Part shown: one piece after another, positions 15,748 through 30,076 of the stretch | Layout: the number at the start of each line of letters is the position of its first letter | How positions within the stretch are numbered: the first letter of the stretch is position 1 | NCBI GenBank assembly: GCA_963746845.1 | Contig: CAVVCZ010000001.1 | Location: 96,001-160,000, forward strand | Direction of reading: 5' to 3' | Source: an uncultured Chloroflexia bacterium | GTDB taxonomy: Bacteria > Chloroflexota > Limnocylindria > Limnocylindrales > CSP1-4 | Length of the DNA stretch: 64,000 nt | The notes under the pieces: generated by a model | What the model saw: only the letters and a program-made list of their open reading frames with translations | Told to the model about the DNA's origin: nothing | Databases searched by the model: none | Translations under genes and position numbers: made by a program

Positions 15748-17442
15748 GTGCGGATCCCGATCCTCCTCTATCTGCTCGCGCTCGTCGTCCGGATCGGATT
15801 GGTGATCCTCTACCCCGACCCGGCGTACCCCGATTCCTACTACTACGTCGACGTCGCCCGGGCGCTCGCCGCCGGCCACGGACTGAACCTCGACTTCATC
15901 TGGATCTTCGCCGAGGTCGGCAACCACATCCCGGCCAATCCGGTCCTCCCGATCCCCGGCAATGCCCACTGGCTGCCGCTGGCGTCGTTCCTCCAGGCGC
16001 CGTTCATCGCGGTCCTCGGGCCGACAACGCTCGCGTCGGCCATCCCGACGGTCCTCATCGGCTCGCTCACCGCGCCGCTGGCCTGGTTCATCGCCCGCGA
16101 CGCCGGCTCGGTGAAGGCCGTCGGGATCGGGGCCGGCATTCTGTGCGCGATCCCCGCGGCGGGGGCCGTCTTCATGGCCCAGCCGGAGAACTTCGCGATC
16201 CTCCAGCCGCTCGTCGCCGCGACGATCTGGCTGACCGTCCGGGGCCTGAAGGGCAGCACCCGCTCCTACGTGGCGGCGGGGTTCCTCGTCGGGCTCGCGT
16301 CCCTCGCCCGCAACGACGGCTTCATCCTCGGCCTGGCGGTCGGGCTCGTGTTCGTGTGGGACCGGTTCCGCTCCTGGCGATCGCGTGGTGCGGTCGCGCC
16401 GCGGCTCCCGTGGCGCGCGGCGGTTGGCTGCTTCGGGCTCTACCTGGTGGTGATGGTCCCCTGGTTCGTCCGCCAGGAGGTCACCTTCGGGTCGATCTCG
16501 CCGACGACATCCGGCGGCAGTGCGCTCTGGATCCGGACGATCCAGGAGTGGAACAGCATCACCGCGGATCCGTCGCTCTCGAAGTTCCTCGCCCAGGGTC
16601 CCGGCCCGATCATCGCGTCGCGGCTCGGCGGCCTCCTCTCGGCGATCGGCAACTTCGCGGTGATCATCGGCTCGGTCGTCCTCGTCCCGTTCCTGCTTGT
16701 CGGGGCGTGGCTGCGTCGGCGCTCGATCGACTTCGGCCCGTGGTTCCTCTACACGTTCCTCGTCTTCCTCGGGGCGACGTTCCTCTACCCGCTCCACGTC
16801 CCGGGCGGCGCGTTCATCCACTCCGCGGTCGGGCTCGAGGCCTACGCGTACATCCTGTCCCTCGAAGGCGTGGTGGCCCTCGTGATGTGGATCGCGAAGC
16901 GCCGGCCGAAGTGGGACCCGAAGGCCGCCGTGCCGCTGTTCGTCGGTGCGGTCGTCTTCTTCGTGGTCGCAACGGCGCCGCTCTATGCGGTCGCCCTGGG
17001 ATCCGCGTGGAGCGAGAGCCGCGCCCCGCGGGTCGCGCTGGCGAACCAGCTGGACAGCCTCGGGGTGGGCCCGAACGACCGGCTCCTGACGATCGACAGT
17101 GCCGGGTTGAAGTACTTCACCGGCCGGCCGGGGATCGTGACCCCGGACGACCCGATCGACACGATCGAGCAGGTCGCGCGGGCGTACGACACGCGCTGGC
17201 TCGTCCTCGAGCGCGACGACATCGTCCGGGCGCTGGCGCCGATCCTCGCCGGCGGCCCGCGACCGTCGTGGATCGGGGCCCCGGTGTTCATCGTCCCCGC
17301 TACGGACGGCGGGGTGGCACGCCTCGCGCTCTTCCCGGTCTGCCTCGACAACAGCGACGAGCGGTGCGCCGGCGGCCCGACCCTCGCCAGCGGCCCGACC
17401 CTCGCGGACGGGGCGACCTTCGCGGACGCGCGCCGCCCGTGA
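15748..17442 (+). CDS. GT39/ArnT/PMT-like glycosyltransferase
   Basis: YPDSYYYVDVARALAAGHG, WLPL, LARNDG, PWFVR motifs; many TM segments. Confidence 0.8.
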   Translation: MRIPILLYLLALVVRIGLVILYPDPAYPDSYYYVDVARALAAGHGLNLDFIWIFAEVGNHIPANPVLPIPGNAHWLPLASFLQAPFIAVLGPTTLASAIPTVLIGSLTAPLAWFIARDAGSVKAVGIGAGILCAIPAAGAVFMAQPENFAILQPLVAATIWLTVRGLKGSTRSYVAAGFLVGLASLARNDGFILGLAVGLVFVWDRFRSWRSRGAVAPRLPWRAAVGCFGLYLVVMVPWFVRQEVTFGSISPTTSGGSALWIRTIQEWNSITADPSLSKFLAQGPGPIIASRLGGLLSAIGNFAVIIGSVVLVPFLLVGAWLRRRSIDFGPWFLYTFLVFLGATFLYPLHVPGGAFIHSAVGLEAYAYILSLEGVVALVMWIAKRRPKWDPKAAVPLFVGAVVFFVVATAPLYAVALGSAWSESRAPRVALANQLDSLGVGPNDRLLTIDSAGLKYFTGRPGIVTPDDPIDTIEQVARAYDTRWLVLERDDIVRALAPILAGGPRPSWIGAPVFIVPATDGGVARLALFPVCLDNSDERCAGGPTLASGPTLADGATFADARRP

Positions 17443-19064
17443 GCCGCCGCGAGGCGGGCCTGACGGCCGGCGTCATCTTCCTCATCGCGCTGGCGATCCG
17501 CGCGGTCGCCGCGATGCTCGTCGTCTTCCCGAAGCCGGAGGACACGGCCTACTACGTCGACGTCGCCCGGAACCTCCTCGGCGGCCGCGGGCTCGTCAGC
17601 GACGCGCTGTGGAGCTTCGGGACCCAGCCGCTCGTCGTGCCGCGGGCGGCGTTCGAGGTCTGGCTCCCCCTCCCGACCCTTGTCGCGGCGATCCCCATGG
17701 CCCTCGTCGGGGCGACCTTCGCCGCGGCCCAGGTCAGCTCGGTGGTCATCGGGGCGCTCGTGCCGGTCCTCGCGTGGCGGCTCGCCGCCGACGTCGCGGA
17801 CGAGAAGGGCCTGCCCCATGGCCGGGCGCGCACCCTCGCGATCGGCACCGGGATCACCGCGGCGGTGTCCCTGCCGCTGATCCTCCACTCGACCCTGCCC
17901 GACTCGACGATGCCGTTCGCCGTGCTGACCCTCGCCGCGACCCTTCTGATGGCGCGGATCCGGCGGACGATCACCACCGATGGCGCGACGACGGGTTCGA
18001 CCCGGGCGCTCCTCGCCCTGGGCGCGATCCTCGGTCTCGCCGCGCTGACCCGCAACGAGGCGCTCTGGCTCGGGCTGGCCTGGTCGATCATCGCCGCGAC
18101 CCTGCCGATCGCGACCCGCGATCGCCTCCGGGTGATCGTCATCCCGGCCGTCGTGGCGCTGGTCCTCTTCCTCCCGTGGATGATCCGCGACCAGATCGCC
18201 TTCGGCAGCCCGCTCCCGGGTCAGGCCCTGAGCAACGCCCTGTCCCTCGACGGGTCGGACATCTTCGCCTGGCAGGACCCACCGACCCTGTCGCGCTACC
18301 TCGCGGCCGGCCTGCCCCGGCTCGTGGAGCTGCGGGTCCTCGGGATCGGCCACAACTTGTTCGACGTCCTGCTGTTCCCGGGCGCCCCACTGTCGTTCAT
18401 CGGCCTGCTCGGCCTGCCGTGGATCGCCCGGCTGCGGTCCGTCCAGCCGCTCCTGATCGTCTCGATCCTGATCTTCGCGATCACCGGCCTGCTCTTCCCC
18501 GTCTCGACGACGTGGGGCACGTTCCTCCACGCGGCGGGCGCGATCCACGTCCTGATGATCGTCTCGGCGCTCGTCGCGCTCGACGCGTTGATCGCGGAGA
18601 TCGGCCGGCGCCGGGGCTGGCACCGGCCCGTCGCCTGGCTCGCACCGGCGCTGACGGTGTCCGGCGCGGTGCTGTTCTCGGTCGTCTTCCTTCCGGCGTT
18701 CGGGAGCGGATCGGCGGCGACGGAGCGGACGTTCAGCGCCCTCGACGACCGCATGGCCGCGGCCGGCATCCCGCTCGGCGGCGACCAGCCGGTCATCACG
18801 GACGCCCCGATCTGGGTGCCGTACGTCGGCGGCGGGACCGCGCTGGCGCTCCCGTTCGAGCCACCGAGCAGCGTGCTCGATCTCGCCCGGCACTTCGGGG
18901 CGACGACCGTGGTGGTCGTCGGTGGCGATCATCCGTTCCCCTCGAATCTCGCGGCCGGCGGCGAGGGGGCCGACTGCTTCCACCAGGTGGCGCTGCCGGG
19001 CAGTCCGCTCCTGTCGTCCGAGGACTCCGACACCACCCGGGTGTACCGGGTCTCGTGCCCATGA
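17439..19064 (+). CDS. GT39/ArnT/PMT-like glycosyltransferase (paralog of upstream gene)
   Basis: GTG 17439 overlaps the upstream stop; PEDTAYYVDVARNLLGGRG, WLPL, LTRNEA, PWMIR, GTFLHA align with the upstream paralog. Confidence 0.8.
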   Translation: MSRREAGLTAGVIFLIALAIRAVAAMLVVFPKPEDTAYYVDVARNLLGGRGLVSDALWSFGTQPLVVPRAAFEVWLPLPTLVAAIPMALVGATFAAAQVSSVVIGALVPVLAWRLAADVADEKGLPHGRARTLAIGTGITAAVSLPLILHSTLPDSTMPFAVLTLAATLLMARIRRTITTDGATTGSTRALLALGAILGLAALTRNEALWLGLAWSIIAATLPIATRDRLRVIVIPAVVALVLFLPWMIRDQIAFGSPLPGQALSNALSLDGSDIFAWQDPPTLSRYLAAGLPRLVELRVLGIGHNLFDVLLFPGAPLSFIGLLGLPWIARLRSVQPLLIVSILIFAITGLLFPVSTTWGTFLHAAGAIHVLMIVSALVALDALIAEIGRRRGWHRPVAWLAPALTVSGAVLFSVVFLPAFGSGSAATERTFSALDDRMAAAGIPLGGDQPVITDAPIWVPYVGGGTALALPFEPPSSVLDLARHFGATTVVVVGGDHPFPSNLAAGGEGADCFHQVALPGSPLLSSEDSDTTRVYRVSCP

Positions 19065-20233
19065 CCGGCCCGTATACTCCGAAGCCAATGGACGCCGCAC
19101 GATCCAGCGACGAGACGCGGGCCGTACGGGACGTGCGGATCGACGGGCTGCGCGCGGAGGCCTCGGAGGCCGTCGGCTACAGCGCGAACACGCTCCGCGC
19201 GGTCAGCCAGCGCTACCGCACCGCCTACACGGACGAGCTCACCCGCTGGCAGGTGCTCCGCGACGAGCTCGACATCGCCGAGCGCGCCGGCGCCGGGGGA
19301 GCCGACCGCCGACACGCCGAAGCCGACGCTCTGGCCGATGGCGACGACGGCGCGGCGGCGACCGCCGACGCCGCGGCCCTGGCCGCCGAGGTCGGCGCCG
19401 AGGACGCCCGCGTCCGCGCGTTGCGCTCGGAGGTCGAGTCGCTCGGGCGCGAGCTCGGCCTGCAGCAGACGGAGCTCGCGAAGCTGGAGATCGCCCTTCG
19501 CAACCTGGAATCCACGTGGCTCTTCCTCGAACGCGGGGACTCGAGCCTCGTCAGCGACACCCAGGGCCTGCCGACCGACGTCCAGATGCGGATCGTCGAG
19601 GCCCAGGAGTCGGAACGATCGCGTCTCGCCCAGGAGGTCCACGACGGACCGGCCCAGGTGCTGTCGAACGCGATCTTCCAGGTGGAATACATCGAGCGCG
19701 TGATCGACACGGACCAGCGCACGGCGAGGACAGAGCTGCGCTTCCTGCGCGACCTGCTTCGCCGCGAGCTCGGCTCCGTTCGAACCTTCATCAGTCAGCT
19801 CCGACCGCCCGTCCTCGACGAGCTCGGGCTGGATGGGGCGATCTCCGATGCCATCGGCCGGGCAACCGCGCTGACGGGCCTCGCGATCAGCTCCGATCTC
19901 GCCGCGCCGGCCGAACGACTGAGCCCTGCCCAGCAGACGGTCGTCCTGCGCGTGCTGCAGGAAGCACTGCAGAATGTACGGAAGCACGGCGCGGCCTCGG
20001 CCGTCACGGTCGCCAGCGCGATCGACGGTGATGACTGGGTCCTGACCGTCCGCGATGACGGTCGTGGCTTCGATGTCGGCGCGGTGGCTGCCCGCGGTCG
20101 GCGGAACTTCGGTCTGCAGTTCATGCGTGAGCGAGCCGAACTGATCGGCGCCCGGTTCGAGGTGCATTCGCGACCGGACGGTGGCACGCTGGTCCGGCTC
20201 GCGATCCCGGTGGGAGCAGAGGAGACCAGCTGA
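19061..20233 (+). CDS. DegS-like cytoplasmic sensor histidine kinase (HisKA_3)
   Basis: Coiled-coil N-terminus with no TM; AQESERSRLAQEVHDGPAQ, LRPPVLDELGL, EALQNVRKH, DDGRGF, FGLQFMRERAE. Start 19061 or 19088. Confidence 0.9.
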   Translation: MTGPYTPKPMDAARSSDETRAVRDVRIDGLRAEASEAVGYSANTLRAVSQRYRTAYTDELTRWQVLRDELDIAERAGAGGADRRHAEADALADGDDGAAATADAAALAAEVGAEDARVRALRSEVESLGRELGLQQTELAKLEIALRNLESTWLFLERGDSSLVSDTQGLPTDVQMRIVEAQESERSRLAQEVHDGPAQVLSNAIFQVEYIERVIDTDQRTARTELRFLRDLLRRELGSVRTFISQLRPPVLDELGLDGAISDAIGRATALTGLAISSDLAAPAERLSPAQQTVVLRVLQEALQNVRKHGAASAVTVASAIDGDDWVLTVRDDGRGFDVGAVAARGRRNFGLQFMRERAELIGARFEVHSRPDGGTLVRLAIPVGAEETS

Positions 20234-20970
20234 TGGCTTATTCGGGACCTGAACGTCGCCGCGGCGGGCCAGACCGGCGCGGGGATGGAGAGCGGACGAA
20301 GATCCTGATCGTCGACGACCATGCCCTGTTCCGTGTCGGGATCAGCAACATCCTCGAGCGCGAGCCGGACTTCGAGGTCGTCGGCGAGGCCGACGACAGC
20401 CGCTCGGCGATCGACCGATCGCTCGAGACGTCGCCGGACATCATCCTCATGGACCTGTCGCTCCCGTCACCCGGTGGGATCGAGACGACCTCGAGGATCA
20501 AGCGCGAGCTGCCCTCGACCGGGATCATCGTCCTGGCCGTCTCCGAGGACGAGGACGCGCTGTTCGACGCGATCAAGGCCGGCGCGGCCGCGTTCATCCT
20601 CAAGGACGTCGGTCCGGATGACCTCGTCACGATCATCCGCCGGGTCGTCTCCGGCGAGTACCTGATCAACGACAAGGTCTTCTCGAAGCCGGCGGTCGCG
20701 TCGCGGGTCCTCAAGGAGTTCCGCGAGCTCGCGGTCTACGGCCAGGAGGCCGCCCCGATCTTCGCGCCGCTCTCGCCGCGCGAGGTCGAGATCCTCGACA
20801 ACATCGCCCAGGGCATGACGAACAAGCAGGTCGCCTACGCCCTGTCGATCAGCGAGCAGACGGTCAAGAACCACATGAGCTCGATCCTCCGGAAGCTCTC
20901 GGTGAACGACCGGACCCAGGCCGTCGTGTACGCGATGCGCCAGGGTTGGATCCGGATGCCGGAAGACTGA
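20233..20970 (+). CDS. NarL/DegU-family response regulator (REC + LuxR HTH)
   Basis: ILIVDDH, ILMDLSLP, FILKD, LSPREVEIL...GMTNKQVA...TVKNHMSSILRKL; N-terminal extension MAYSGPERRRGGPDRR. Confidence 0.93.
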   Translation: MAYSGPERRRGGPDRRGDGERTKILIVDDHALFRVGISNILEREPDFEVVGEADDSRSAIDRSLETSPDIILMDLSLPSPGGIETTSRIKRELPSTGIIVLAVSEDEDALFDAIKAGAAAFILKDVGPDDLVTIIRRVVSGEYLINDKVFSKPAVASRVLKEFRELAVYGQEAAPIFAPLSPREVEILDNIAQGMTNKQVAYALSISEQTVKNHMSSILRKLSVNDRTQAVVYAMRQGWIRMPED

Positions 20971-20979
20971 TCGGAACCC

Positions 20980-22219
20980 GTGTCCCCATCCAGGCGCGAC
21001 CCGTCCGACGACGCCGGAGCCGCCGCCGCTGATCTCGGCACGCGGCTCGGGCTGGAGATCCATGGGCTCGACGGCGAGCTGACCGAGATCGAGATGCTCG
21101 TCAACCAGGCGCGCACCGAGGCGACCCGACACGAGCAGAAACGCGCCCAGATCGCGGACAAGCTGGCCGGCGCGGTGAGCCTGCCACCGGAGGATCTCGC
21201 CGCGCTCAACGCCCAGCTGGTCACGCTGACGCGCCGGGCATCGGTCATGGAGGCCCAGGTCGAGGTGCTCGAGGGGAAGCGGAAGACGCTCGCCCGCTCG
21301 CGCGACGTCCTGACCGCGATCGCGACCGAGTACGGGGCGGTCGTCGCGTCGGAAGCGTCCGGGGCACCGCGCCTCACGGCGGGGCCGGGTGGGACCGATG
21401 CGGGCGCGCCCATGAGCCGGATCGTCCTCAACGCCCAGGAGGACCTCCGGCGCGAGATCGCGCGGGCGATGCACGACGGGCCCGCCCAGAGCCTGACGAA
21501 CATCGTCCTCCAGGCCCAGATCGTCGAGCGGCTGCTCGGACGGGATCCCGACGGCGCCCGGGGCGAGCTGCGGCTCCTCGTCCAGATGGTCCAGCAGACG
21601 CTCGATGCGACGAAGACATTCATCTTCGACGTCCGGCCGATGGTCCTCGACGACCTCGGGCTCGTGCCGACGCTGCGCCGGGCGGCGCGCGAACGCGGGC
21701 GGCGGGCCGGCGTGGCGGTCGAGTTCGACACGATCGGCGCGGATCACCGGATCGAGGTCGACCTGGAGAGCAGCCTCTTCCGGATCGTCGACGAGGCGCT
21801 CGCCGCCTATCTGGCGGCCAACCCGGACCGGGTCGCCGTGCGGCTGGACTGGTCGGACGGGATCGTCGAGGTCGTCGTGGCCGCCCAGCGCGACCCGACC
21901 GAGACGATGGCCGCCGCGGACCGGCAGCTTGTCGAGACGCTCGAGGCCGAGGAGGCCGCCGGCAAGGACCTGCCGCCGGCCCTCGAATCGATGCTCGTGG
22001 ACCGGCGCGAGCAGGCCGAAATCGGCGGTGACCGCGGCACGCGAGGCCGCGGTGGTCGGGCTGCCCGCCAGCACCTGGCGGGAGATCGAGGGGCGGGCGG
22101 TCACCACCGGGATCGCCGCCGAGCTGAGCGACGGCGGCGCGACCCTCCGGCTGCGCGTCGAGGTCGGTCCTCCGACCGGCACGGGAGCGACGGCCGATGC
22201 GGTGGCCCAGGTCGAGTAG
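20980..22219 (+). CDS. Second DegS-like protein with intact H-box and degenerate ATPase domain; apparent +1 frameshift near 22020
   Basis: AQEDLRREIARAMHDGPAQSL and VRPMVLDDLGL present. After GCCGAAATCG (22015-22024) the protein-like sequence continues in another frame (SAVTAAREAAVVGLP...LRLRVEV) to TAG 22219. Confidence 0.75.
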
Positions 22220-22388
22220 GGCTCGACTGCGCCGGGCGCTGCGAGCCGTGCACGGCCAGGGCATCGTCGAGTACGGGCTGATCCTGTCGCTGTCGGCCCT
22301 CCTGGCGGTCGTCCTCCTCGTCTTCTTCGGCGGGACCCTGAGCGCGCTCCTGCAGGTCGTCGGCGACGCGATCGACGCGGCCACCTGA
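22197..22388 (+). CDS. flp: Flp family type IVb pilin, divergent copy 1
   Basis: G|QGIVEYGLILSL Flp motif (E+5, Y+6) followed by a hydrophobic helix. Confidence 0.75.
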   Translation: MRWPRSSRARLRRALRAVHGQGIVEYGLILSLSALLAVVLLVFFGGTLSALLQVVGDAIDAAT

Positions 22389-22752: not shown

Positions 22753-22804
22753 GTTGTGTGTCCGGGATCCGTCGTCGCGTTCTCCCGGCCTTCGCTCGTC
22801 GCGC

Positions 22805-22936
22805 GCGTGTCGGTGGCACACGCGAGGACGGGGGTCGATCGCCGCGCGAGCGTGGCCCAGTTCGCGGGCATGTGCGTGGCACACCGGTGACACGACTTGG
22901 GGCACCCGAGCGTCCACGCGTGTGCATGACACACGC
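22805..22936. repeat. Three 19-bp palindromic repeats, consensus GCGTG-N4-TG-N3-CACGC
   Basis: Copies at 22805-22823, 22868-22886 (degenerate) and 22918-22936. Confidence 0.6.
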
Positions 22937-23039
22937 CCGCGACGCGGAACCCGGGCGACCGGCGCGGAGCCCCATCACCGACGCGGACTGGTGCGGCGCG
23001 GCTCCGCAAAGTCGGCGGACGGACTGGCCAATCGTCTCA

Positions 23040-23069
23040 TTGACACCCATCGCGTTCCGCCCGTACTTT
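23040..23069 (+). promoter_or_regulatory. Sigma70-type promoter of flp copy 3
   Basis: TTGACA-18 nt-TACTTT. Confidence 0.6.
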
Positions 23070-23125
23070 GGCGCCCGCCTTCGGCTTCGACCGGGGAGCT
23101 CTCGAGGAAAGGAGGTAATGCCCAG

Positions 23126-23296
23126 ATGACGTTCTTCACCGCACTCATGTCTTCTCTTCGTCGGGATGAGGAAGGCCAGGGTCTCGCCGAGTACGCGCTG
23201 ATCCTCGCCCTCATCGCGATCGTCGCGATCATCGCCCTCATCTTCCTCGGCACGCAGGTCAGCACGATCCTGTCGAAGGTCGGCGCCTCCGTCTAG
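23126..23296 (+). CDS. flp: Flp family type IVb pilin, copy 3
   Basis: MTFFTALMSSLRRDEEG|QGLAEY...SKVGASV; AAAGGAGGT RBS. Confidence 0.93.
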   Translation: MTFFTALMSSLRRDEEGQGLAEYALILALIAIVAIIALIFLGTQVSTILSKVGASV

Positions 23297-23312
23297 CCTC
23301 GGATCAACGAAC

Positions 23313-23346
23313 AGACCGCCGGCCCCCTCCGGGGCGCCGGCGGTCT
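23313..23346 (+). terminator. Hairpin terminator after flp copy 3
   Basis: AGACCGCCGG...CCGGCGGTCT followed by TCGTTTCT. Confidence 0.7.
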
Positions 23347-23403
23347 TCGTTTCTCCCGGACTGCGCGCGGGTCGCACGGTCAACGGTTTCGGCGCCAACC
23401 CGC

Positions 23404-23433
23404 TTGACGCCCGCCGAGGGCCACCCGTAAGGT
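23404..23433 (+). promoter_or_regulatory. Sigma70-type promoter of flp copy 4
   Basis: TTGACG-18 nt-TAAGGT, same geometry as the copy 3 promoter. Confidence 0.55.
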
Positions 23434-23491
23434 TCGCCGGCCTCCGGACGTCGTCCGGGGAGCTCTCTGAGGAAAGGAGGTCTCACCCCAG

Positions 23492-23662
23492 ATGTCCGTT
23501 CTGCATGCACTCATTGCATCCATCCGCCGGGACGAGGACGGCCAGGGTCTCGCGGAGTACGCGCTGATCCTCGCCCTCATCGCGATCGTGGCGATCATCG
23601 CCCTGATCTTCCTGGGCACCCAGGTCAGCACGATCCTGTCGAAGATCGGCACGTCCGTCTGA
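23492..23662 (+). CDS. flp: Flp family type IVb pilin, copy 4
   Basis: Manual translation MSVLHALIASIRRDEDG|QGLAEY...SKIGTSV; AAAGGAGGT RBS. Missing from the ORF track. Confidence 0.93.
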   Translation: MSVLHALIASIRRDEDGQGLAEYALILALIAIVAIIALIFLGTQVSTILSKIGTSV

Positions 23663-23670
23663 CGTCCAGC

Positions 23671-23710
23671 GATGAGCCGCCGGCGCGCTAGGCGGCGCCG
23701 GCGGCTCATC
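23671..23710 (+). terminator. Hairpin after flp copy 4
   Basis: GATGAGCCGCCGGCGC...GCGCCGGCGGCTCATC perfect 16-bp stem; no U-tract. Confidence 0.55.
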
Positions 23711-23769
23711 GCATCCGGGCGATGGAAACCACTGGTGCGCGACCGCGCCATTGGGTACCAAGGGACCTA

Positions 23770-23797
23770 TTGACAGTCCTACCAGACGACCTACCGT
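23770..23797 (+). promoter_or_regulatory. Sigma70-type promoter of flp copy 5
   Basis: TTGACA-16 nt-TACCGT. Confidence 0.45.
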
Positions 23798-23875
23798 GCG
23801 TCGTGCCGGGGGCGTCTCATCCCGACCTCCGGGATCGCCCGTTCGGGACGTTTCGTCGGAAAGGAGGTGAATCAG

Positions 23876-24067
23876 GTGTCCCAAGTCCGGCGGATCGCCG
23901 CCCGGTTGCGTCAGTCCTGGACTGACACTGACGGCCAGGGACTGGCCGAGTACGCACTCATCCTTGCGCTCATCGCGATCGTCGCCATCGTTGCCCTCAT
24001 CTTCATGGGACAGCAGGTGAGCGATAAGCTCAGCGTCATCGGCAGCACGATCAAGTCCGTGCAATAG
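23876..24067 (+). CDS. flp: Flp family type IVb pilin, copy 5
   Basis: DTDG|QGLAEYALILALIAIVAIVALIFMGQQVSDKLSVIGSTIKSVQ; AAAGGAGGTGA RBS. Start 23867 or 23876. Confidence 0.92.
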   Translation: MSQVRRIAARLRQSWTDTDGQGLAEYALILALIAIVAIVALIFMGQQVSDKLSVIGSTIKSVQ

Positions 24068-24120: not shown

Positions 24121-24305
24121 TCGCGTCCCCGGAATGGCCCCGCGCACCGGCGAGCGGTCGCACCGACAAACATTGCGAGTTGCCTTGCTTCGTGCGTGAT
24201 TTCCTCCCGTTTCTTCCCAATGGTCCTAGCCCATTGGTATAGTCGCGCGCCCCGAACCCGGTGCTAGAGTGGTGCCACCTGTCACACGGCTCGGGGAGAC
24301 CTAAC

Positions 24306-25211
24306 TTGAAGCGCTCGAATCGGCTTGTCCTGCTCGTCGGGGTGTTCCTGGCGGTCGTTGCGTTCGTGGGAATCGCTCTGTTGCTGAGCAACGGAAACAG
24401 CACCTCGAACCCCAACACTGCGGCCCCGACACAGCTTCCGACTGTCATCGCGAAGCAGGACATCAACCTCGGGGTGACTGTGACCGCAGACATGGTCGAG
24501 ACGCAGACGCTCGACGTGACCAACCGCAAGGCGACCGCGTTCGGTGATCCGAGCCAGGTCGTCGGGCAGGTCGCGCGCCGGCCGATCAAGGCCACCGCGC
24601 AGCTCGAGAGCGCCGACTTCGACACGAGCGGCACGGGCGTCTCCACGGTGACCGTCCCGCCCGGCATGCGCGCGATCTCCGTCCAGGTCGACCAGGTCTC
24701 CGGCGTCGGCACCGTGATCAACACGGGCGACTACGTCGACCTCCTCGTCGGCTTCACCGGTGACAAGTTCCCCGTCGTGACCGTCAACCCGCAGGACGAC
24801 TCGATCAGCGTCGTGAGCGGCCTGAACGGGACGAGCGTCAAGCTCCTCCTCGAGGGCATGCAGGTCCTCGGCCGGCAGCTCCCGCCGCCGACCACGACCC
24901 AGGCCCAGCAGCCGGCCGACAACGGTCAGACCGGCAGCGGTCAGCCGACGACGTCGCTCAACGGCCAGCAGGAGATCGTCATCCTCGCCGTGACCCCGTC
25001 CCAGGCAGAGGTGATCAAGTTCGCCCAGCTGGACGGCTCGGTCAGCCTGATCCTCCGCTCCTCGAAGGACTTCGTGGACGACTCCGGCAACGCGGTTGTC
25101 ACGCCACCGAGCGGCACCGAGGGCGTCACGCTCAAGAAGCTCACCACGGACTTCGCGGTTCCGATCCCGGAGCTCGTCGAGGCCATCCTCCCCGCCCAGG
25201 CCCGCCGCTAG
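24306..25211 (+). CDS. cpaB: Flp pilus assembly protein CpaB/RcpC
   Basis: TTG start MKRSNRLVLL, one TM, SAF domain (VIAKQDI...), VPPGMRAISVQVD..GV...GDYVD. Confidence 0.9.
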   Translation: MKRSNRLVLLVGVFLAVVAFVGIALLLSNGNSTSNPNTAAPTQLPTVIAKQDINLGVTVTADMVETQTLDVTNRKATAFGDPSQVVGQVARRPIKATAQLESADFDTSGTGVSTVTVPPGMRAISVQVDQVSGVGTVINTGDYVDLLVGFTGDKFPVVTVNPQDDSISVVSGLNGTSVKLLLEGMQVLGRQLPPPTTTQAQQPADNGQTGSGQPTTSLNGQQEIVILAVTPSQAEVIKFAQLDGSVSLILRSSKDFVDDSGNAVVTPPSGTEGVTLKKLTTDFAVPIPELVEAILPAQARR

Positions 25212-25369
25212 CCGGCCCAGGCCCCACCGCCGGTCGCGAGAGCTACCGGTCGACTCGAGCCAAAGCGCGACGGGCGCGTCGGACTCCGGTCCCCGCGCCC
25301 GTCCAACGCTCCGGGGACCCGATCCCCGGCCATCCCCCCAGCAGCGAGATCCATCGGAACCCCTGACGA

Positions 25370-26629
25370 ATGGCCGACCAGATCCGCGTCCTGATCGTGG
25401 ACGACATCCCGGAGACCCGCGACCACCTCACGAAGCTTCTCGGGTTCGAGAGCGACATCGAGGTGGTCGGGTCCGCCGCTTCCGGCAGCGAGTCGCTGTC
25501 GATGGCGGGCGAGCTGCTCCCGGACGTCGTCCTCATGGACATCAACATGCCCGACATGGACGGCATCGCCGCGACGGAGAAGCTCTCCTCCGAGGTGCCG
25601 ACCGCGTCTGTCGTGATGATGTCCGTCCAGGGCGAAGCCGACTACCTTCGTCGGTCGATGCTCGCGGGGGCCCGCGAGTTCCTCGTCAAGCCGTTCAGCA
25701 GCGACGAGCTGACGGCGTCGATCCGGCAGGTCTACACGCGTGAACAGGAGAAGATCAGCCGGATGGCCGTCGCGCCGATCGCGACCGGGACCCCGGCCGG
25801 CGGTGGCGGTGGCGGCGGCGACGACGGCAAGGACGGCCAGGTCGTCGCGATCTTCAGCCCGAAGGGCGGCGTCGGCCGGACCACGGTCGCGGTCAACCTC
25901 GCGGTCGCGGCCGCGACAGAGCTCGGCAAGTCGGTCGTGCTCGTCGACGGCTCGTTCCAGTTCGGGGACGTCGGCGTCCTGCTCAACCTGAACCCGAAGA
26001 ACAAGTCGATCGCGGACCTCGTGCCGGAGCTCGAAGCCGGCGAGCCGGAGTCGCTCGACACATTCATCATCAACCACTCCGCCGGGATCCGGGTGCTGCT
26101 CGCCCCGCCGTCCCCGGAGATGGCCGAGCTGATCACCCCGTCCGGCGTCCGCCGCGTCCTCGACGCGCTCCGGCGCGGCCACGACCTCGTGATCGTCGAC
26201 TGCACCTCGTGGTTCAACGAGACCACGCTCGCGATCCTCGATGCGGCAGACGTCGTCCTGACGATGCTCAGCCTCGAGATCACGAGCATCAAGAACATGC
26301 GGCTGTTCCTGGAAGTCGCCGAGCAGCTCGGCTACGACCAGCAGAAGGTCAAGCTCGTCCTCAACCGGGCGGACTCCAGCCTCGGCATCCGCGTCTCCGA
26401 CGTGGAGAGCTCGATCGGCCGCAAGGTCGATCACACGATCGTCAGCGACGGACGGTCCGTCGTGTACGCCCTGAATCGGGGCGTACCGTTCTTCCTCTCG
26501 AACCGGGAGGCGCAGGTCTCCCAGGACATCCTCCGTCTCGCCCAGTCCATCTCCGGGGAACGGGTCGCTGCCCCGCGAGAGGACGACCGCAAGGCGGCGC
26601 AGAAGAAGTCTCTGTTCTCATTCCGATGA
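25370..26629 (+). CDS. cpaE: REC-domain + MinD/ParA-like ATPase, CpaE/TadZ
   Basis: N-terminal receiver (IVDD, VLMDINMPDMDG, FLVKPF), then deviant Walker A SPKGGVGRTT and QFGDV. Confidence 0.88.
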   Translation: MADQIRVLIVDDIPETRDHLTKLLGFESDIEVVGSAASGSESLSMAGELLPDVVLMDINMPDMDGIAATEKLSSEVPTASVVMMSVQGEADYLRRSMLAGAREFLVKPFSSDELTASIRQVYTREQEKISRMAVAPIATGTPAGGGGGGGDDGKDGQVVAIFSPKGGVGRTTVAVNLAVAAATELGKSVVLVDGSFQFGDVGVLLNLNPKNKSIADLVPELEAGEPESLDTFIINHSAGIRVLLAPPSPEMAELITPSGVRRVLDALRRGHDLVIVDCTSWFNETTLAILDAADVVLTMLSLEITSIKNMRLFLEVAEQLGYDQQKVKLVLNRADSSLGIRVSDVESSIGRKVDHTIVSDGRSVVYALNRGVPFFLSNREAQVSQDILRLAQSISGERVAAPREDDRKAAQKKSLFSFR

Positions 26630-26676
26630 TGTCGTCGGTCACAGCAGCCCAAGCGGCGCGATAAGGGGTTGATGCA

Positions 26677-28092
26677 ATGTCACTGCTGAAGCGGATCGAG
26701 AGCGCTCGACCGGGCACGGGGCCGGCTCCGGCCACGCCCGGAGTGCCGGCTGCCCCGGGCGGCCCGGCCGTCCCGACCGGACCGAGCGGGTCCGCGCCTC
26801 CGGCCCAGCGCCTGATGACCCAGGCACCGGTCCGTGAGTCGTTCCGCGACGTCAAGTTCCGGATCCAGAGCCGGGTCATCCAGGACCTGGACCCGAAGCT
26901 CGACCTGAGCAACCAGGTCGAGGTCCGGCGCCAGATCGAGGAGATCTTCGGCAAGGTCATCGACGAGGAAGGCCTCGCGCTGACCCGCGCCGAGCGCGTC
27001 CGGATGCTCGAGCAGATCACCGACGAGATCATCGGCCTCGGCCCGTTGGAGCCCCTCCTCCGTGACGAGTCGATCTCGGAGGTCATGGTCAACGGCCCGC
27101 GCCAGGTCTACATCGAACGCTCGGGCAAGCTCGAGCTGACGAACGTCGTCTTCCAGAACGACGACCACGTCATGCGGATCATCGACCGGATCATCGCGCC
27201 GATCGGTCGCCGCGTCGACGAGTCCTCGCCGATGGTCGACGCCCGCCTGACCGACGGCTCGCGCGTCAACGCGATCATCCCGCCCCTGTCGCTCGTCGGC
27301 CCGGTCATCACGATCCGGAAGTTCTCGGCGTCGCCGTTCACCGTCGACGACCTGGTCCGGTTCGGCACCGCGACCCCGGACATGTTCGACTTCCTCCGCG
27401 CCTGCGTGGAGGCCCGCCTGAACATCTTCGTGTCCGGCGGCACGGGCTCCGGCAAGACGACGACCCTGAACGTCCTCTCCTCGTTCATCCCGAACGACGA
27501 GCGGATCGTCACGATCGAGGACGCCGCCGAGCTTCAGCTCCGCCAGGAGCACGTGGTGACCCTCGAGTCGCGCCCGCCGAACATCGAAGGCAAGGGCGCC
27601 ATCCCGATCCGCGAGCTCGTCCGGAACTCCCTCCGGATGCGGCCCGACCGGATCATCGTCGGAGAGTGCCGCGCCGGCGAGGCGCTGGACATGCTCCAGG
27701 CGATGAACACCGGCCACGACGGATCGATGTCGACCGGCCACGCCAACAGCCCCCGCGACATGCTCGCCCGGCTCGAGACGATGGTCCTCATGGCCGGCGT
27801 CGACCTCCCGGTCCGCGCCATCCGCGAGCAGATCGCCTCGGCGGTCGACCTCATCGTCCAGCAGAGCCGCCTCAAGGACGGGACCCGGAAGATCGTCAAC
27901 ATCACCGAGGTCCAGGGCATGGAAGGCGACGTCATCGTCATGCAGGACGTCTTCGTCTTCGAGCAGACCGGTGTCGTCGAGGGGAAGATCCAGGGCCGCC
28001 TGAAGGCGACCGGGATCCGGCCCAAGTTCGTCGAGAAGTTCGAGGTGATGGGCATCCATCTGCCTCCGGGCCTCTTCGGCTTCAGCTACTGA
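26677..28092 (+). CDS. cpaF: Tad pilus assembly ATPase CpaF/TadA
   Basis: GLGPLEPLL, SGGTGSGKTT, TIEDAAEL, LRMRPDRIIVGECR, AMNTGHDGS. Confidence 0.96.
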   Translation: MSLLKRIESARPGTGPAPATPGVPAAPGGPAVPTGPSGSAPPAQRLMTQAPVRESFRDVKFRIQSRVIQDLDPKLDLSNQVEVRRQIEEIFGKVIDEEGLALTRAERVRMLEQITDEIIGLGPLEPLLRDESISEVMVNGPRQVYIERSGKLELTNVVFQNDDHVMRIIDRIIAPIGRRVDESSPMVDARLTDGSRVNAIIPPLSLVGPVITIRKFSASPFTVDDLVRFGTATPDMFDFLRACVEARLNIFVSGGTGSGKTTTLNVLSSFIPNDERIVTIEDAAELQLRQEHVVTLESRPPNIEGKGAIPIRELVRNSLRMRPDRIIVGECRAGEALDMLQAMNTGHDGSMSTGHANSPRDMLARLETMVLMAGVDLPVRAIREQIASAVDLIVQQSRLKDGTRKIVNITEVQGMEGDVIVMQDVFVFEQTGVVEGKIQGRLKATGIRPKFVEKFEVMGIHLPPGLFGFSY

Positions 28093-28111
28093 GCACGGAG
28101 GAGGCCTCGGA

Positions 28112-29125
28112 ATGCCAGTCATGACGCTCGTCGTCGCGGGCGTCGCAGCGGCCGCGATCTTCCTGATCGCGATCGGCATCGCGACGTCCGGCAGCGGCTC
28201 CGGGGTGAGCGCACGCCTCGAGCGGTATGCGTCGGCTCGCCAGAGCGGCAAGCCCGAGGCGTCCGGCCAGGGCGGTCTCGCCGACCTGCTCGCGCAGTCC
28301 GTCGCTCTCGCCCAGCTGAACCGGGTCGTCGAACAGCGCGACTTCGGGGCGAACCTCGCCCGCGACATCGCCCGGGCCGACCTGAAGCTCAAGCCGTCCG
28401 AGTTCCTGGCGATCTGGGGTGCCGCGATCGTCGGCATCCCGATCCTGTTCGTCCTCGTGTCGGTCGCCCTGCCGGCGCTCCGCAGCCCGATCGCGCTGCT
28501 CGTCGGGGCGTTCCTCGGGTTCTGGCTGCCGCGCTTCTGGCTCGGTCGCCGCAAGGCCGGCCGGCTGAACGCGTTCAACAAGCAGCTGCCCGACACGATC
28601 ACCCTCCTCGCGAACGGCCTCCGCGCCGGCTCGTCGTTCCTCCAGGCCGTCGAGCTCGTCGTCCGCGAGTCGCGGCCGCCGATGTCGACCGAGTTCAGCC
28701 GCGTCATCCGCGAGGTCAACCTCGGCCTGCCGTTCGAGCAGGCGATGGAGAACATGGTCCGCCGCGTCCGGTCCGACGACCTGGAGCTGATGGCGACCGC
28801 GATCAACATCCAGCACACCGTCGGCGGCAACCTCGCCGAGATCCTCGACTCGATCGCGTTCACGATCCGCGAGCGGATCCGGATCAAGGGCGAGATCCGC
28901 ACCCTCACCGCCCAGCAGCGACTGTCGGGCTACGTCGTCGGCTTCCTGCCGATCGGCCTCGCCGGGTTCCTGTTCATCGCGGCACCGCACTTCATGGACC
29001 CGATGTTCCAGAAGCCGCCGGAGGCCCTCGGGCTGCCGCTCGGCATGGTCATCCTGTTCTTCGGCGGTTTCATGATGTTCATCGGCTTCATGCTGATCCG
29101 CCGCATCGTCGACATCGAGGTCTAG
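28112..29125 (+). CDS. tadB: Tad pilus platform protein TadB (T2SSF family)
   Basis: QLPD..LLANGLRAG, GGNLAEILD..IRER. Confidence 0.92.
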   Translation: MPVMTLVVAGVAAAAIFLIAIGIATSGSGSGVSARLERYASARQSGKPEASGQGGLADLLAQSVALAQLNRVVEQRDFGANLARDIARADLKLKPSEFLAIWGAAIVGIPILFVLVSVALPALRSPIALLVGAFLGFWLPRFWLGRRKAGRLNAFNKQLPDTITLLANGLRAGSSFLQAVELVVRESRPPMSTEFSRVIREVNLGLPFEQAMENMVRRVRSDDLELMATAINIQHTVGGNLAEILDSIAFTIRERIRIKGEIRTLTAQQRLSGYVVGFLPIGLAGFLFIAAPHFMDPMFQKPPEALGLPLGMVILFFGGFMMFIGFMLIRRIVDIEV

Positions 29126-29128
29126 CCG

Positions 29129-30076
29129 ATGCCAGCCTTCATCCCGATCCTCATCGCCGCCGCTGCCGCGGGGGCCATCCTGCTGATCGCCCTCGGGCTT
29201 GCCGGCGGCTCGCCCGTCGATCCGGTCCAGGCCCGCCTGACCCAGCTCGGCACGATGCAGGCGAAGAACCTCGAGGAGCTGGAGCTGCAGGCTCCGTTCC
29301 TCGAGCGCACCCTGCGTCCGATCGCGGCCCAGCTGTCGGGCCGGCTGTCGCGGGTCGCGAGCAGCTCGTTCCAGGAGCGGACCGAGAAGCGGCTCGCCCT
29401 GGCCGGCAACCCGGGCAACCTCCGGGTCGCCGACTGGCTCGGCATCAAGGCCGTCTCGGCGGTCGTCGGTGCGGTCCTGTTCCTGCTCCTGTTCGGCGTC
29501 GTCGGTCTCCTCGGGCTGCCGCCCGTCCTGCGCCTCCTCATGGGCGCGATCGGGCTGATGTTCGGGTACACGATCCCGGAGTTCTGGCTTGGCGGGCGCG
29601 TCAAGAAGCGCCAGCACCTGATCCTGCTCCAGATCCCGGACACGCTCGACCTGCTGACGATCTCGGTCCGCGCCGGTCTCGGCTTCGACGCCGCGCTCGG
29701 CAAGGTCGTCGAGAAGATGGAAGGCCCGCTCGTCGACGAGTTCCGTCGGGCGCTGGCCGAGGTCCGGGTCGGCAAGGCGCGCCGCGAGGCGCTCCGCGAC
29801 ATCGTCCCCCGGACCGAGGTCCCGCCGCTGACGAACTTCATCGGCGCGATCATCCAGGCCGAGCAGCTGGGTGTCTCGATCAGCAAGGTGCTCCAGGTCC
29901 AGTCGGAGCAGCTCCGGATCGAGCGCCGCCAGCGCGCAGAGGAGCAGGCGGCGAAGGCGCCGATCAAGATGCTGTTCCCGCTCGTCGGGTGCATCTTCCC
30001 GTCGCTGTTCATCGTCATCCTCGGCCCGGCGATCATCCTGATCATGCAGAACCTGACGGCGACCCCGGGCACGTGA
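29129..30076 (+). CDS. tadC: Tad pilus platform protein TadC
   Basis: PDTLDLLTISVRAGLGFDAAL, QAEQLG, AEEQAAKAPIKMLFPL. Confidence 0.92.
   Translation: MPAFIPILIAAAAAGAILLIALGLAGGSPVDPVQARLTQLGTMQAKNLEELELQAPFLERTLRPIAAQLSGRLSRVASSSFQERTEKRLALAGNPGNLRVADWLGIKAVSAVVGAVLFLLLFGVVGLLGLPPVLRLLMGAIGLMFGYTIPEFWLGGRVKKRQHLILLQIPDTLDLLTISVRAGLGFDAALGKVVEKMEGPLVDEFRRALAEVRVGKARREALRDIVPRTEVPPLTNFIGAIIQAEQLGVSISKVLQVQSEQLRIERRQRAEEQAAKAPIKMLFPLVGCIFPSLFIVILGPAIILIMQNLTATPGT

What the first reader, a model, noticed from the sequence alone, without database searches (positions are those of the whole stretch)
20233..20300. Tandem YxGPERR/GPDRR arginine-rich motif on a NarL/DegU-type regulator
Seen: the regulator begins MAYSGPERRRGGPDRRGDGER before the receiver domain. 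Known: Caulobacter Cle proteins bind c-di-GMP through a repeated [YF]xGP[DE]RR arginine-rich motif attached to a receiver domain. Inference: this may be a transcription factor integrating phosphorylation and c-di-GMP, fitting control of adhesive pili. I do not know of this motif being described N-terminal to a NarL-family regulator.
Basis: partly seen in the sequence, partly recalled or inferred. Interest (0 to 1): 0.75.

Follow-up and report, generated by a model that had tools for sequence, protein, structure and literature searches.

The report
Conserved arginine-rich tail on pilus regulator
A gene regulator next to the adhesive-pilus genes of an uncultured Chloroflexota bacterium carries a short, strongly conserved arginine-rich tail that resembles a known binding site for the bacterial signal c-di-GMP, but differs from it in spacing, and no binding has been tested.

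Summary
ORF 20233-20970 (+) encodes a 245-aa NarL/LuxR-type response regulator with a REC and a GerE domain. Its only possible start puts a 23-residue tail, MAYSGPERRRGGPDRRGDGERTK, ahead of the receiver domain.

The tail is selected as a peptide. 105 species-level genomes carry GP[DE]RRRGGPDRR in 101 different nucleotide versions, always at the N-terminus of this same regulator. The gene order around it is conserved: kinase, regulator, pseudokinase, Flp pilins, Tad pilus genes.

In an unbiased sample of the class:
- One family keeps Y-x-G-x-[DE]RRR (30 of 30 loci).
- A second family keeps only [DE]RR-x-G-x-DRR (20 of 20 loci).
- A third family has no such tail (0 of 20 loci), and its regulator is not next to Tad genes.

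But the two halves here abut, with 5 residues between the Arg pairs against 11 in CleD. The second aromatic residue is missing, and the tail is N-terminal. So it is not a Cle ARR in the strict sense.

The genome has GGDEF and EAL genes but no PilZ hit. My best reading, at about 40%, is a compact c-di-GMP or guanine-nucleotide sensing tail. Binding is untested. A second protein in the window carries related [DE]RR repeats.

The parts
20233..20301 (+). N-terminal tail, codons 1-23 (MAYSGPERRRGGPDRRGDGERTK), ahead of strand beta-1 of the receiver domain
   Evidence: Translation. Pfam REC starts at residue 24. AF2 gives pLDDT below 50 for residues 1-18 with no secondary structure. Solved NarL-family relatives align only from query residue 17-24 onward.
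20239..20280 (+). Conserved core, Y3 to R16: two abutting 7-residue units, Y-S-G-P-E-R-R and R-G-G-P-D-R-R
   Evidence: Pattern found once in the window, 0 of 100 shuffles matched. 105 in-frame copies in other genomes with 101 distinct 36-nt versions. The aromatic residue, which was not part of the pattern, is Y in 100, F in 4 and H in 1 of 105.
20220..20224 (+). Shine-Dalgarno-like AGGAG, 8 nt before the ATG. The ATG overlaps the kinase stop (TGATG at 20231-20235).
   Evidence: Read directly from the sequence.
20233..20970 (+). NarL/FixJ (LuxR-type HTH) response regulator, 245 aa: tail, REC (aa 24-136, nt 20302-20640), GerE HTH (aa 179-234, nt 20767-20934)
   Evidence: Pfam PF00072 E=3.3e-25 and PF00196 E=1.3e-22. 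Best NCBIfam matches are NarL and NarP, below their cut-offs. Closest solved structures are VraR, NarL, DevR and DesR.
19049..20233 (+). Upstream histidine kinase (HisKA_3 + HATPase_c), translationally coupled to the regulator. Its 5' limit is approximate.
   Evidence: Pfam. The GC3 frame plot shows this frame is coding only from about 19000. Kept upstream of the regulator in 43 of 49 long loci.
20980..22281 (+). Second kinase-like gene with HisKA_3 only; no HATPase_c domain was detected
   Evidence: Pfam. NCBIfam matches end at about residue 300. Present in 45 of 49 f1-type loci and in 0 of 10 f4 loci at 50% or more coverage.
23160..24067 (+). Two Flp-type pilin genes (ends of ORFs 22754-23296 and 23867-24067)
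   Evidence: PF04964 at E=1.6e-5 and 4.5e-5, below the gathering score. One to four Flp hits at this position in 44 of 49 loci.
24261..30076 (+). Tad pilus machinery: CpaB (24261-25211), CpaE/TadZ-like REC+ParA (25370-26629), CpaF ATPase (26677-28092), TadB (28112-29125), TadC (29129-30076)
   Evidence: Pfam RcpC, Response_reg+AAA_31, T2SSE, T2SSF x2. Gene order kept in 39-47 of 49 loci and, for CpaE, CpaF, TadB and TadC, in 10 of 10 f4 loci.

Best explanation
The gene is the response regulator of a two-component cassette that controls the adjacent Flp/Tad pilus genes, in the manner of PprB or DegU. Its 23-residue disordered N-terminal tail is a short linear ligand-binding motif made of two [DE]-R-R units. 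The most likely ligand is c-di-GMP or a closely related guanine nucleotide.

By analogy with the CleD peptide, the Arg pairs would read the Hoogsteen edges of the guanines, the preceding Asp or Glu would read N1/N2, and Tyr3 would cap the stack. The tail would fold on binding.

The N-terminus of a CheY-like domain lies beside the end of helix alpha-5, where Cle proteins carry their motif. Ligand binding could therefore change receiver-domain dimerisation, or its hold on the HTH domain. That would let pilus transcription integrate phosphorylation with the second messenger.

Shown here: the tail exists, is translated, is selected as a peptide, and occurs only in the Tad-linked orthologues. Inferred: the ligand, the binding mode, the effect on the regulator, and control of the pilus genes.
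For: 1. Peptide-level selection. 105 of the 119 pattern hits in the 185,579-species collection are in frame at the N-terminus of this regulator. All four synonymous codons are used at the Gly, Pro and Arg positions, and there are 101 distinct 36-nt versions.

2. Samples chosen without reference to the motif.
- 120 close homologues all keep Y.G[PQ]ERRRGGPDRR while the flanks vary.
- Family f1: 30 of 30 loci keep Y-x-G-x-[DE]RRR, and 21 of 30 keep the whole 12-mer.
- Family f4: 20 of 20 loci fit [DE]RR-x-G-x-DRR.

3. Match to the Cle motif. Residues 2-10 (AYSGPERRR) match CleD's AYVGPDRRR at 7 of 9 positions, with two conservative changes. The tail has the same kinds of groups that Hee 2020 found necessary: an acid followed by RRR, a second RR, a nearby acid, and one aromatic.

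4. The acid before each Arg pair is always kept. It is D or E in the first unit and D in 105 of 105 in the second, although the pattern allowed E. This fits base recognition better than plain charge.

5. The signalling system is present but short of known receptors. The genome has 18 GGDEF and 6 EAL hits and 0 PilZ hits. Across the class, GGDEF is found in f1 60/60, f3 66/66 and f4 66/66 genomes, and PilZ in only 7 of 61.

6. Link to pili.
- Tail-bearing orthologues sit in the Tad locus: CpaF is present in 45 of 49 f1-type loci and 10 of 10 f4 loci.
- The 20 tail-less f3 orthologues have no Tad gene within the stretches fetched.
- In all 5 f3 genomes searched, the CpaF orthologue lies on another contig. 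The four f3 Tad loci fetched show no tailed NarL-type regulator.

7. AF2 predicts the tail to be disordered, as the apo CleD peptide is.

8. In family f1 a second, unrelated protein carries the same unit. The flippase-like protein at 37188-38486 (-) carries 2 x ([DE]RR-[ST]G.-[DE]RR-[ST]G.-[DE]RR), conserved in most of its 63 homologues. It includes RRSGD, which matches Hee's [R/K]RxxD.
Against: 1. No binding data exist, and none can be produced with these tools.

2. Only 5 residues separate the Arg pairs, against 11 in CleD. Single-residue deletions in that loop weakened the peptide 2- to 11-fold, and Y163A weakened it about 25-fold. There is no second aromatic here.

3. Family f4 lacks Y-x-G-P altogether, so the resemblance to the Cle unit may be lineage-specific decoration. 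One f1 genus has lost the second unit while keeping the gene (5 of 30 loci).

4. There is no Arg in the predicted helix alpha-4 (residues 107-116), where Cle proteins keep a contributing Arg.

5. GGDEF genes are equally present in f3, which lacks the tail. Co-occurrence therefore does not discriminate.

6. The flippase-like orthologues of f3 and f4 lack the repeat tail (0 of 10 loci). The two tails do not co-vary across families.

7. The tail/Tad-linkage correlation rests on at most two or three independent evolutionary events.

8. phmmer with the tail alone found nothing in the PDB. That is uninformative at this length.
Confidence: 0.4

Rival explanations
1. The tail is a docking peptide for a protein partner or for the regulator itself. 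The partner could be a kinase, the CpaE/TadZ-like receiver-ATPase, another Tad-locus product, or the regulator's own acidic receiver pocket acting as an autoinhibitory or dimerisation element. No small molecule would be involved.
For: - Short conserved disordered motifs are typical protein-binding elements, and the tail is predicted disordered.
- It occurs only where the regulator is embedded in the Tad locus.
- The receiver active-site residues differ between families (DD in f1, DG in f4, AD in f3). This hints at co-evolution of the tail with receiver function.
Against: - The pseudokinase cannot be the partner. It was not found in 10 of 10 f4 loci that keep the tail.
- The same [DE]RR-xGx-[DE]RR unit on a membrane flippase-like protein would need the same partner.
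- No candidate partner was identified or tested.
Confidence: 0.25
2. The tail is an extra DNA-contacting arm. A flexible Arg-rich N-terminal arm would add affinity or specificity at the flp/tad promoters, in the way AT-hook-like or N-terminal arms do in other DNA-binding proteins.
For: - The tail has net charge +3 on a transcription factor.
- Arg also reads guanine in the DNA major groove, and the genome is 71% G+C.
- The Tad-linked orthologues may share a promoter architecture that the f3 orthologues lack.
Against: - The strictly kept acidic residue before each Arg pair is unusual for DNA-binding arms (recalled, not tested).
- The tail is attached to the receiver domain, not to the HTH domain.
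- The related repeat in the membrane protein is nearly charge-neutral and cannot be a DNA arm.
- None of the solved NarL-family relatives has such an arm.
Confidence: 0.2
3. The conservation reflects something other than a functional peptide: a DNA or RNA element for translational coupling, a mis-called start, or a neutral leader.
For: The region lies directly after a stop/start overlap, where RNA-level constraints are common.
Against: - Third codon positions vary freely while the amino acids are invariant.
- No alternative start leaves the receiver domain intact.
- The residues flanking the core vary while the core does not.
Confidence: 0.05

Closest known systems
[quoted passage not shown]
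   Same: - A short, disordered, Arg-rich peptide attached to a receiver domain.
- The first unit Y-x-G-P-[DE]-R-R-R matches the published half-motif.
- The arrangement is tandem.
- An acid precedes each Arg pair.
- The attachment point is next to where Cle proteins carry theirs. That the N-terminus and the end of alpha-5 are neighbours in the CheY fold is recalled, not computed here.
   Different: - N-terminal, not C-terminal.
- Sits on a REC-HTH transcription factor, not a single-domain CheY.
- The units abut (GP to GP is 7 residues against 13), with 5 instead of 11 residues between the Arg pairs.
- Arg replaces the second aromatic.
- The C-terminal RxxD is not kept at a fixed position.
- The sister family has no Y-x-G-P.
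- Found in Chloroflexota. 294 of the 302 ARR proteins found in the 2017 paper were alphaproteobacterial.
- Binding is untested.
VpsT of Vibrio cholerae, a LuxR/CsgD-type regulator that binds c-di-GMP. It is listed among c-di-GMP-binding DNA-binding proteins in PMC12564702 (passage); the details are recalled.
   Same: It would work alike: a receiver-like domain plus a LuxR-type HTH, whose activity on surface-structure genes responds to c-di-GMP.
   Different: VpsT binds the ligand through a motif within its receiver-domain fold (recalled), not through a terminal peptide. No sequence relationship between the binding elements is apparent. Not tested here.
PprA-PprB of Pseudomonas aeruginosa (PMC3510237, abstract read), and DegS-DegU of Bacillus subtilis (recalled; also named in earlier scan notes)
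   Same: A two-component system whose regulator controls Flp type IVb pili. PprB's and DegU's membership of the NarL family is recalled. The kinase here is of the HisKA_3 type, as in DegS.
   Different: No Arg-rich N-terminal tail is known for them (recalled, not checked here). The cassette here adds a kinase-like gene without an ATP-binding domain. Regulation of the pilus genes here is inferred from gene order only.
GGDEF I-site RxxD, and the BldD RGD / RQDD motifs (recalled; the RxxD comparison to PleD is made in Hee 2020)
   Same: Arg followed by an acid three residues later, contacting stacked guanines. The f4 tail contains RRGGD and the flippase-like tail contains RRSGD, both fitting [R/K]RxxD.
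   Different: Those motifs sit in folded domains and need further residues from elsewhere in the protein. Here the whole putative site would be about 10-14 contiguous residues.

Membership tests
Cle-type arginine-rich region (ARR) | Tandem repeat of [Y/F]xGP[D/E][R/K]R | tested here: inconclusive
   Unit 1 fits. The aromatic is Y or F in 104 of 105 loci. Unit 2 fits xGP[DE]RR but has Arg in place of the aromatic. In family f4 neither unit has Y-x-G-P, 20 of 20 loci.
Cle-type arginine-rich region (ARR) | DRR and [R/K]RxxD motifs about 11 residues apart, with a stacking Tyr in the loop between them | tested here: not met
   There are 5 residues between E7-R8-R9 and R15-R16, with no aromatic between them. 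The acid after R16 is at +2 and +4 here, and at +3 to +5 in orthologues. The requirement is from Hee 2020.
Cle-type arginine-rich region (ARR) | Placed C-terminal to a stand-alone CheY-like receiver domain | tested here: not met
   The tail is N-terminal to a REC domain that is followed by a GerE HTH.
Cle-type arginine-rich region (ARR) | Conserved Arg in receiver helix alpha-4 contributing to binding (R113 of CleD) | tested here: not met
   The predicted alpha-4 is residues 107-116. It holds no Arg and one Lys. The two helices were not aligned residue by residue.
Cle-type arginine-rich region (ARR) | Binds c-di-GMP at 2 ligands per peptide with sub-micromolar Kd | not testable with these tools
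   Needs ITC, MST or DRaCALA.
NarL/FixJ family response regulator | Receiver domain with an intact phospho-acceptor site | tested here: met
   PF00072 E=3.3e-25. D28-D29 follow beta-1, D73 ends beta-3, S103 follows beta-4 and K123 ends beta-5, read from the sequence against the AF2 strands.
NarL/FixJ family response regulator | C-terminal LuxR/GerE-type helix-turn-helix | tested here: met
   PF00196 E=1.3e-22, residues 179-234. Full-length alignment to VraR, NarL and DevR structures.
NarL/FixJ family response regulator | Partner HisKA_3-type histidine kinase | tested here: met
   The upstream gene has HisKA_3 + HATPase_c and overlaps the regulator's start. Kept in 43 of 49 and 10 of 10 loci.
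Tad/Flp-locus two-component regulator (PprB-like) | Encoded within or beside a flp-tad locus | tested here: met
   Flp, CpaB, CpaE, CpaF, TadB and TadC lie downstream on the same strand. The order is conserved.
Tad/Flp-locus two-component regulator (PprB-like) | Directly activates flp/tad transcription | not testable with these tools
   Needs EMSA or a reporter assay. No binding site was sought here.

The most novel reading that the evidence does not exclude
Limnocylindria, which have many GGDEF proteins but mostly no PilZ domain, may use portable mini-receptors. These would be tandem [DE]RR units, only 9-15 residues long, grafted onto the disordered N-termini of unrelated output proteins. Examples are the Tad-pilus transcription factor (f1 and f4) and, in f1, a flippase-like membrane protein carrying two triple units. 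If so, they would be the shortest natural c-di-GMP (or other guanine-nucleotide) binding sites known, and a compact relative or convergent version of the Cle ARR. The regulator would integrate phosphorylation and the second messenger at a single receiver domain.
Probability: 0.25. Interest if true: 0.8.

Novelty: new variant of a known kind. Interest (0 to 1): 0.6.

Why it matters
Linear peptide receptors for c-di-GMP are known from one protein family, found almost entirely in alphaproteobacteria. They have already been turned into sequestering tools.

A natural, even shorter version in another phylum, at the other end of the receiver domain and on a DNA-binding regulator, would matter in three ways:
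- It would show that the principle is portable.
- It would give a direct route from the second messenger to pilus transcription in an abundant uncultured soil and freshwater lineage.
- It would help explain how genomes with 7-17 GGDEF hits (a lower bound, since at most 17 candidates were scored per genome) and mostly no PilZ domain read the signal.

If the ligand is something else, the tail is still a sharply defined, testable 14-residue motif under strong selection.

Tried and rejected
- **phmmer of the 24-residue tail against PDB sequences.** No hit at E up to 10. The query is too short for this to mean anything.
- **Literature string searches.** GPDRR/GPERR/GPERRR/GGPDRR and DRRSG/ERRSG/DRRTG/ERRTG returned only the Hee 2020 paper and irrelevant hits. 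A term search for CleD, receiver domain, LuxR and novel c-di-GMP, and a look through a 2025 effector review (passages), found no N-terminal ARR on a NarL-type regulator. I found no description in the held library. Subscription journals are not covered.
- **Earlier scan notes by place and by words.** Nothing found.
- **Other tandem [DE]RR tails in the genome.**
  - A candidate at C5 proved to lie upstream of the likely start of an acetolactate-synthase-type TPP enzyme.
  - Another lies before ribosomal protein L14.
  - Two are MarR wing motifs.
- **A ligand shared by the regulator tail and the flippase-like tail.** This idea is weakened, because the flippase-like orthologues of f3 and f4 lack the repeats.
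- **The closeness of the two genes as evidence.** It carries no weight. They are syntenic neighbours, 7-21 kb apart, in all ten f3 and f4 genomes checked, whether or not the tails are present.
- **Complex prediction.** Not run. A ligand cannot be the scored partner, and a receiver-domain homodimer would pass by likeness to solved structures. The job could not have changed my odds.
- **A second AF2 job, fold searches, read mapping and the last protein search.** Not used, because none of them bears on ligand binding.
Full report
**What is there**

The window comes from a 3.56-Mb, 71% G+C genome. Source names on homologues of its proteins, and record titles of matching contigs, say Candidatus Limnocylindrales/Limnocylindria, Chloroflexota.

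ORF 20233-20970 (+) encodes 245 residues. Pfam finds a receiver domain at residues 24-136 and a GerE/LuxR helix-turn-helix at 179-234. The best NCBIfam models are NarL and NarP, both below their cut-offs. The nearest solved structures are VraR, NarL, DevR and DesR. All of them align only from query residue 17-24 onward, so none has an equivalent of the first 16 or more residues.

The first 23 residues are MAYSGPERRRGGPDRRGDGERTK.

**The start codon**

- No ATG, GTG or TTG lies in frame between the upstream stop and 20233.
- The next in-frame Met is residue 73, inside the receiver domain.
- The ATG overlaps the stop of the upstream kinase (TGATG).
- AGGAG lies 8 nt upstream.

The tail is therefore part of the protein unless the receiver domain is truncated.

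**More than chance**

- The degenerate pattern for GP[DE]RRRGGP[DE]RR occurs once in the window and in 0 of 100 shuffles.
- A six-frame scan of the whole genome finds the strict half-motif 3 times and a tandem 2 times. Only this copy lies in a coding frame.

**Conservation**

- 105 loci are in frame at the N-terminus of this same regulator. Three of these (L005, L045, L049) show an apparent frameshift further downstream.
- 14 loci are off-frame Arg/Gly/Pro-rich noise in other phyla.
- This sample was selected by the motif, so it shows only two things that are not built in. First, the codons vary freely: all four synonymous codons are used at Gly, Pro and Arg positions, with 101 distinct 36-nt versions. 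Second, the aromatic residue two positions before the pattern is Y in 100, F in 4 and H in 1 of 105.
- Selection therefore acts on the peptide and not on the DNA or RNA.

*Samples chosen without the motif.*
- The 120 closest database homologues (91-97% identity, apart from one 300-aa protein at 67%) all keep Y.G[PQ]ERRRGGPDRR, while the residues on both sides vary.
- I also searched 201 genomes of the class with the whole protein.

| Family | Genomes with an orthologue | Identity | What the tail looks like |
|---|---|---|---|
| f1 | 60 of 60 | 79-100% | 30 loci read: all 30 keep Y-x-G-x-[DE]RRR; 21 keep the full 12-mer; 2 change the first Pro; 2 have Gln for the second Pro; 5 (one genus) have lost the second unit |
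| f4 | 61 of 66 | 76-79% | 20 loci read: all fit [DE]RR-x-G-x-DRR (16 are [DE]RRRGGDRR); none has Y-x-G-P |
| f3 | 64 of 66 | 57-61% | 20 loci read: none has any Arg-rich tandem |
| f2 (1.0-1.4 Mb genomes) | 0 of 7 | - | no orthologue found |

- The tallies include nine genomes flagged as unpublished. No sequence from them was read.
- At lower identity, NarL-family representatives mostly begin 3-10 residues before beta-1.

The class-wide core is thus [DE]RR-R-G-G-(P)-DRR. The Cle-like Y-x-G-P belongs to f1.

**Genomic context**

GC3 frame analysis and Pfam give this gene order:
1. two GT-C/PMT_2-like membrane glycosyltransferases (15748-17442 and about 17443-19064)
2. a HisKA_3 kinase (about 19049-20233)
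3. the regulator
4. a second kinase-like gene with HisKA_3 but no detectable ATPase domain (20980-22281)
5. Flp pilin genes
6. CpaB, a CpaE/TadZ-like REC-ParA protein, CpaF, TadB and TadC

How well this order is kept:
- In 49 pattern-selected loci of 12 kb or more, it recurs as follows: regulator 49, TadB 47, CpaE 46, CpaF 45, TadC 45, second kinase 45, PMT_2 45, Flp 44, first kinase 43, CpaB 39.
- In 10 f4 loci, the kinase, the regulator and CpaE-CpaF-TadB-TadC are present in 10 of 10. The second kinase-like gene was not found.
- In the 20 f3 loci, the kinase-regulator cassette is kept (the second kinase-like gene was seen in 18, and two loci end too early to show it). No Tad gene lies within the flanks fetched. 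These reach up to 7 kb, and several are cut by contig ends.
- All five f3 genomes searched do have CpaF orthologues, each on a different contig from the regulator. The four f3 Tad loci fetched show no NarL-type regulator with such a tail.

So tail and Tad linkage go together. This reflects at most two or three evolutionary events, and relatives are not independent.

Earlier scan notes on other genomes describe the same glycosyltransferase, two-component, pseudokinase, Flp and Tad arrangement. None mentions the tail.

**Comparison with the Cle motif**

Nesper 2017 (passages) describes a 28-residue C-terminal extension of CheY-like proteins. It holds a tandem [Y/F]xGP[D/E][R/K]R, binds two c-di-GMP, and keeps binding when grafted onto other proteins. 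Of the 302 proteins found in that paper, 294 were alphaproteobacterial.

Hee 2020 (Results, parts 1-2) solved the CleD peptide complex:
- D154, R155 and R156, together with R168/R169 and D172, hold an intercalated c-di-GMP dimer.
- Y163 stacks on it.
- Single deletions in the loop raise the Kd 2- to 11-fold.
- Y163A raises it about 25-fold.
- The apo peptide is unfolded.

Against this:
- Window residues 2-10 match CleD 149-157 at 7 of 9 positions.
- The tail offers the same kinds of groups: an acid followed by three Arg, a second Arg pair preceded by an acid, further acids just after, and one Tyr.
- But the two 7-residue units abut. Only 5 residues separate the Arg pairs, and Arg stands where the second aromatic would be.
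- The acid that follows is not at a fixed distance in orthologues.
- The predicted alpha-4 has no Arg.
- The tail is at the other end of the domain.

I therefore do not file it as a Cle ARR. It could still work like one. The N-terminus of a CheY-like domain lies next to the end of alpha-5 (established fold knowledge, recalled, not computed here). An N-terminal tail would therefore emerge where the Cle ARR does, at a spot that in a NarL-type protein is taken by the linker to the HTH.

**Is the signal available?**

- The genome has 18 GGDEF and 6 EAL hits and no PilZ hit, at 92% completeness.
- Across the class, GGDEF is found in f1 60/60, f3 66/66, f4 66/66 and f2 0/7 genomes.
- PilZ is found in only 7 of 61 genomes searched.
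- c-di-GMP signalling is therefore present, and most of its receptors are unidentified.
- f3 has GGDEF genes without the tail, so this does not discriminate.

**Structure**

AF2, run on a 104-sequence alignment, gives mean pLDDT 82.6. The receiver and HTH domains are confident. Residues 1-18 fall below 50, with no secondary structure. This fits a motif that folds on binding, or any other disordered tail.

**A second protein with the same unit**

A coding-frame scan of the genome for tandem [DE]RR found real N-terminal tails only in the regulator and in ORF 37188-38486 (-).

- This second protein is a 432-aa LPG_synthase_TM / TIGR00374 flippase-like membrane protein. It lies downstream of MurA-like, MreB and PHP-domain genes.
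- Its roughly 100-residue tail holds seven [DE]RR units in two clusters: a triple and a quadruple.
- A search scored on the tail alone found 63 homologues, 62 of them carrying PF03706. Most of them have two clusters of [DE]RR-[ST]G.-[DE]RR-[ST]G.-[DE]RR, joined by a variable Ala/Pro-rich linker.
- The unit spacing matches the f4 regulator tail (ERR-RGG-DRR), and RRSGD fits Hee's [R/K]RxxD.
- The clusters are almost charge-neutral. This argues against simple binding to DNA or anionic lipid.
- The flippase-like orthologues of five f3 and five f4 genomes lack the repeats. This tail is therefore an f1 feature and does not co-vary with the regulator tail.
- The two genes are neighbours, 7-21 kb apart, in all ten of those genomes. 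Their closeness in the window carries no weight.

**Verdict**

| Reading | My estimate |
|---|---|
| Compact sensor for c-di-GMP or another guanine nucleotide | about 0.4 |
| Docking motif for a protein partner | about 0.25 |
| DNA-contacting arm | about 0.2 |
| Non-peptide explanation (largely excluded) | about 0.05 |
| Something not considered here | about 0.1 |

I found no description of such a tail in the held literature.

Noticed in passing
window 37188-38486 (-): A flippase-like membrane protein (PF03706/TIGR00374) has a roughly 100-residue N-terminal tail holding seven [DE]RR units spaced x-G-x, in two clusters (a triple and a quadruple). Most of the 63 homologues found by a tail-only search have two triple clusters. 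The f3 and f4 orthologues lack the repeats.
   Followed up: partly
window 20980-22281 (+): The second kinase-like gene after the regulator has a HisKA_3 domain but no detectable HATPase_c. It is kept in 45 of 49 f1-type loci and was not found in 10 f4 loci. Earlier scan notes on other genomes call it a pseudokinase.
   Followed up: partly
window 17400-20233 (+): The mechanical 874-aa ORF 17609-20233 is not one gene. GC3 shows coding in another frame up to about 19064 (a second PMT_2-like gene, 26-32% identical to the first in relatives). The kinase frame is coding only from about 19000, so the two genes overlap slightly.
   Followed up: partly
L150-L169 (f3) and L170-L189 (f4), start of the receiver domain: The acidic pair after beta-1 is D-D in f1 (ILIVDDH), D-G in f4 (VIVDGH) and A-D in f3 (VLLADSS). 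The sister families may therefore handle phosphorylation differently.
   Followed up: no
class-wide genome searches: GGDEF domains are found in every genome searched of families f1, f3 and f4. Between 3 and at least 17 hits are reported per genome, and at most 17 candidates were scored. PilZ was found in only 7 of 61 genomes. Family f2, with 1.0-1.4 Mb genomes, shows neither GGDEF nor this regulator.
   Followed up: partly
L001-L080 and window 22754-24067: The number of Flp pilin gene hits between the regulatory cassette and cpaB varies from 1 to 4 among related genomes.
   Followed up: no
L138, L142, L144, L146, L147 (one f1 genus): The second unit of the tail is replaced by PG..(G)R (for example YAGPERRRPGPGGRSGEK), while the first unit is intact. 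This is a natural half-motif variant that would be useful as a comparison in binding tests.
   Followed up: no
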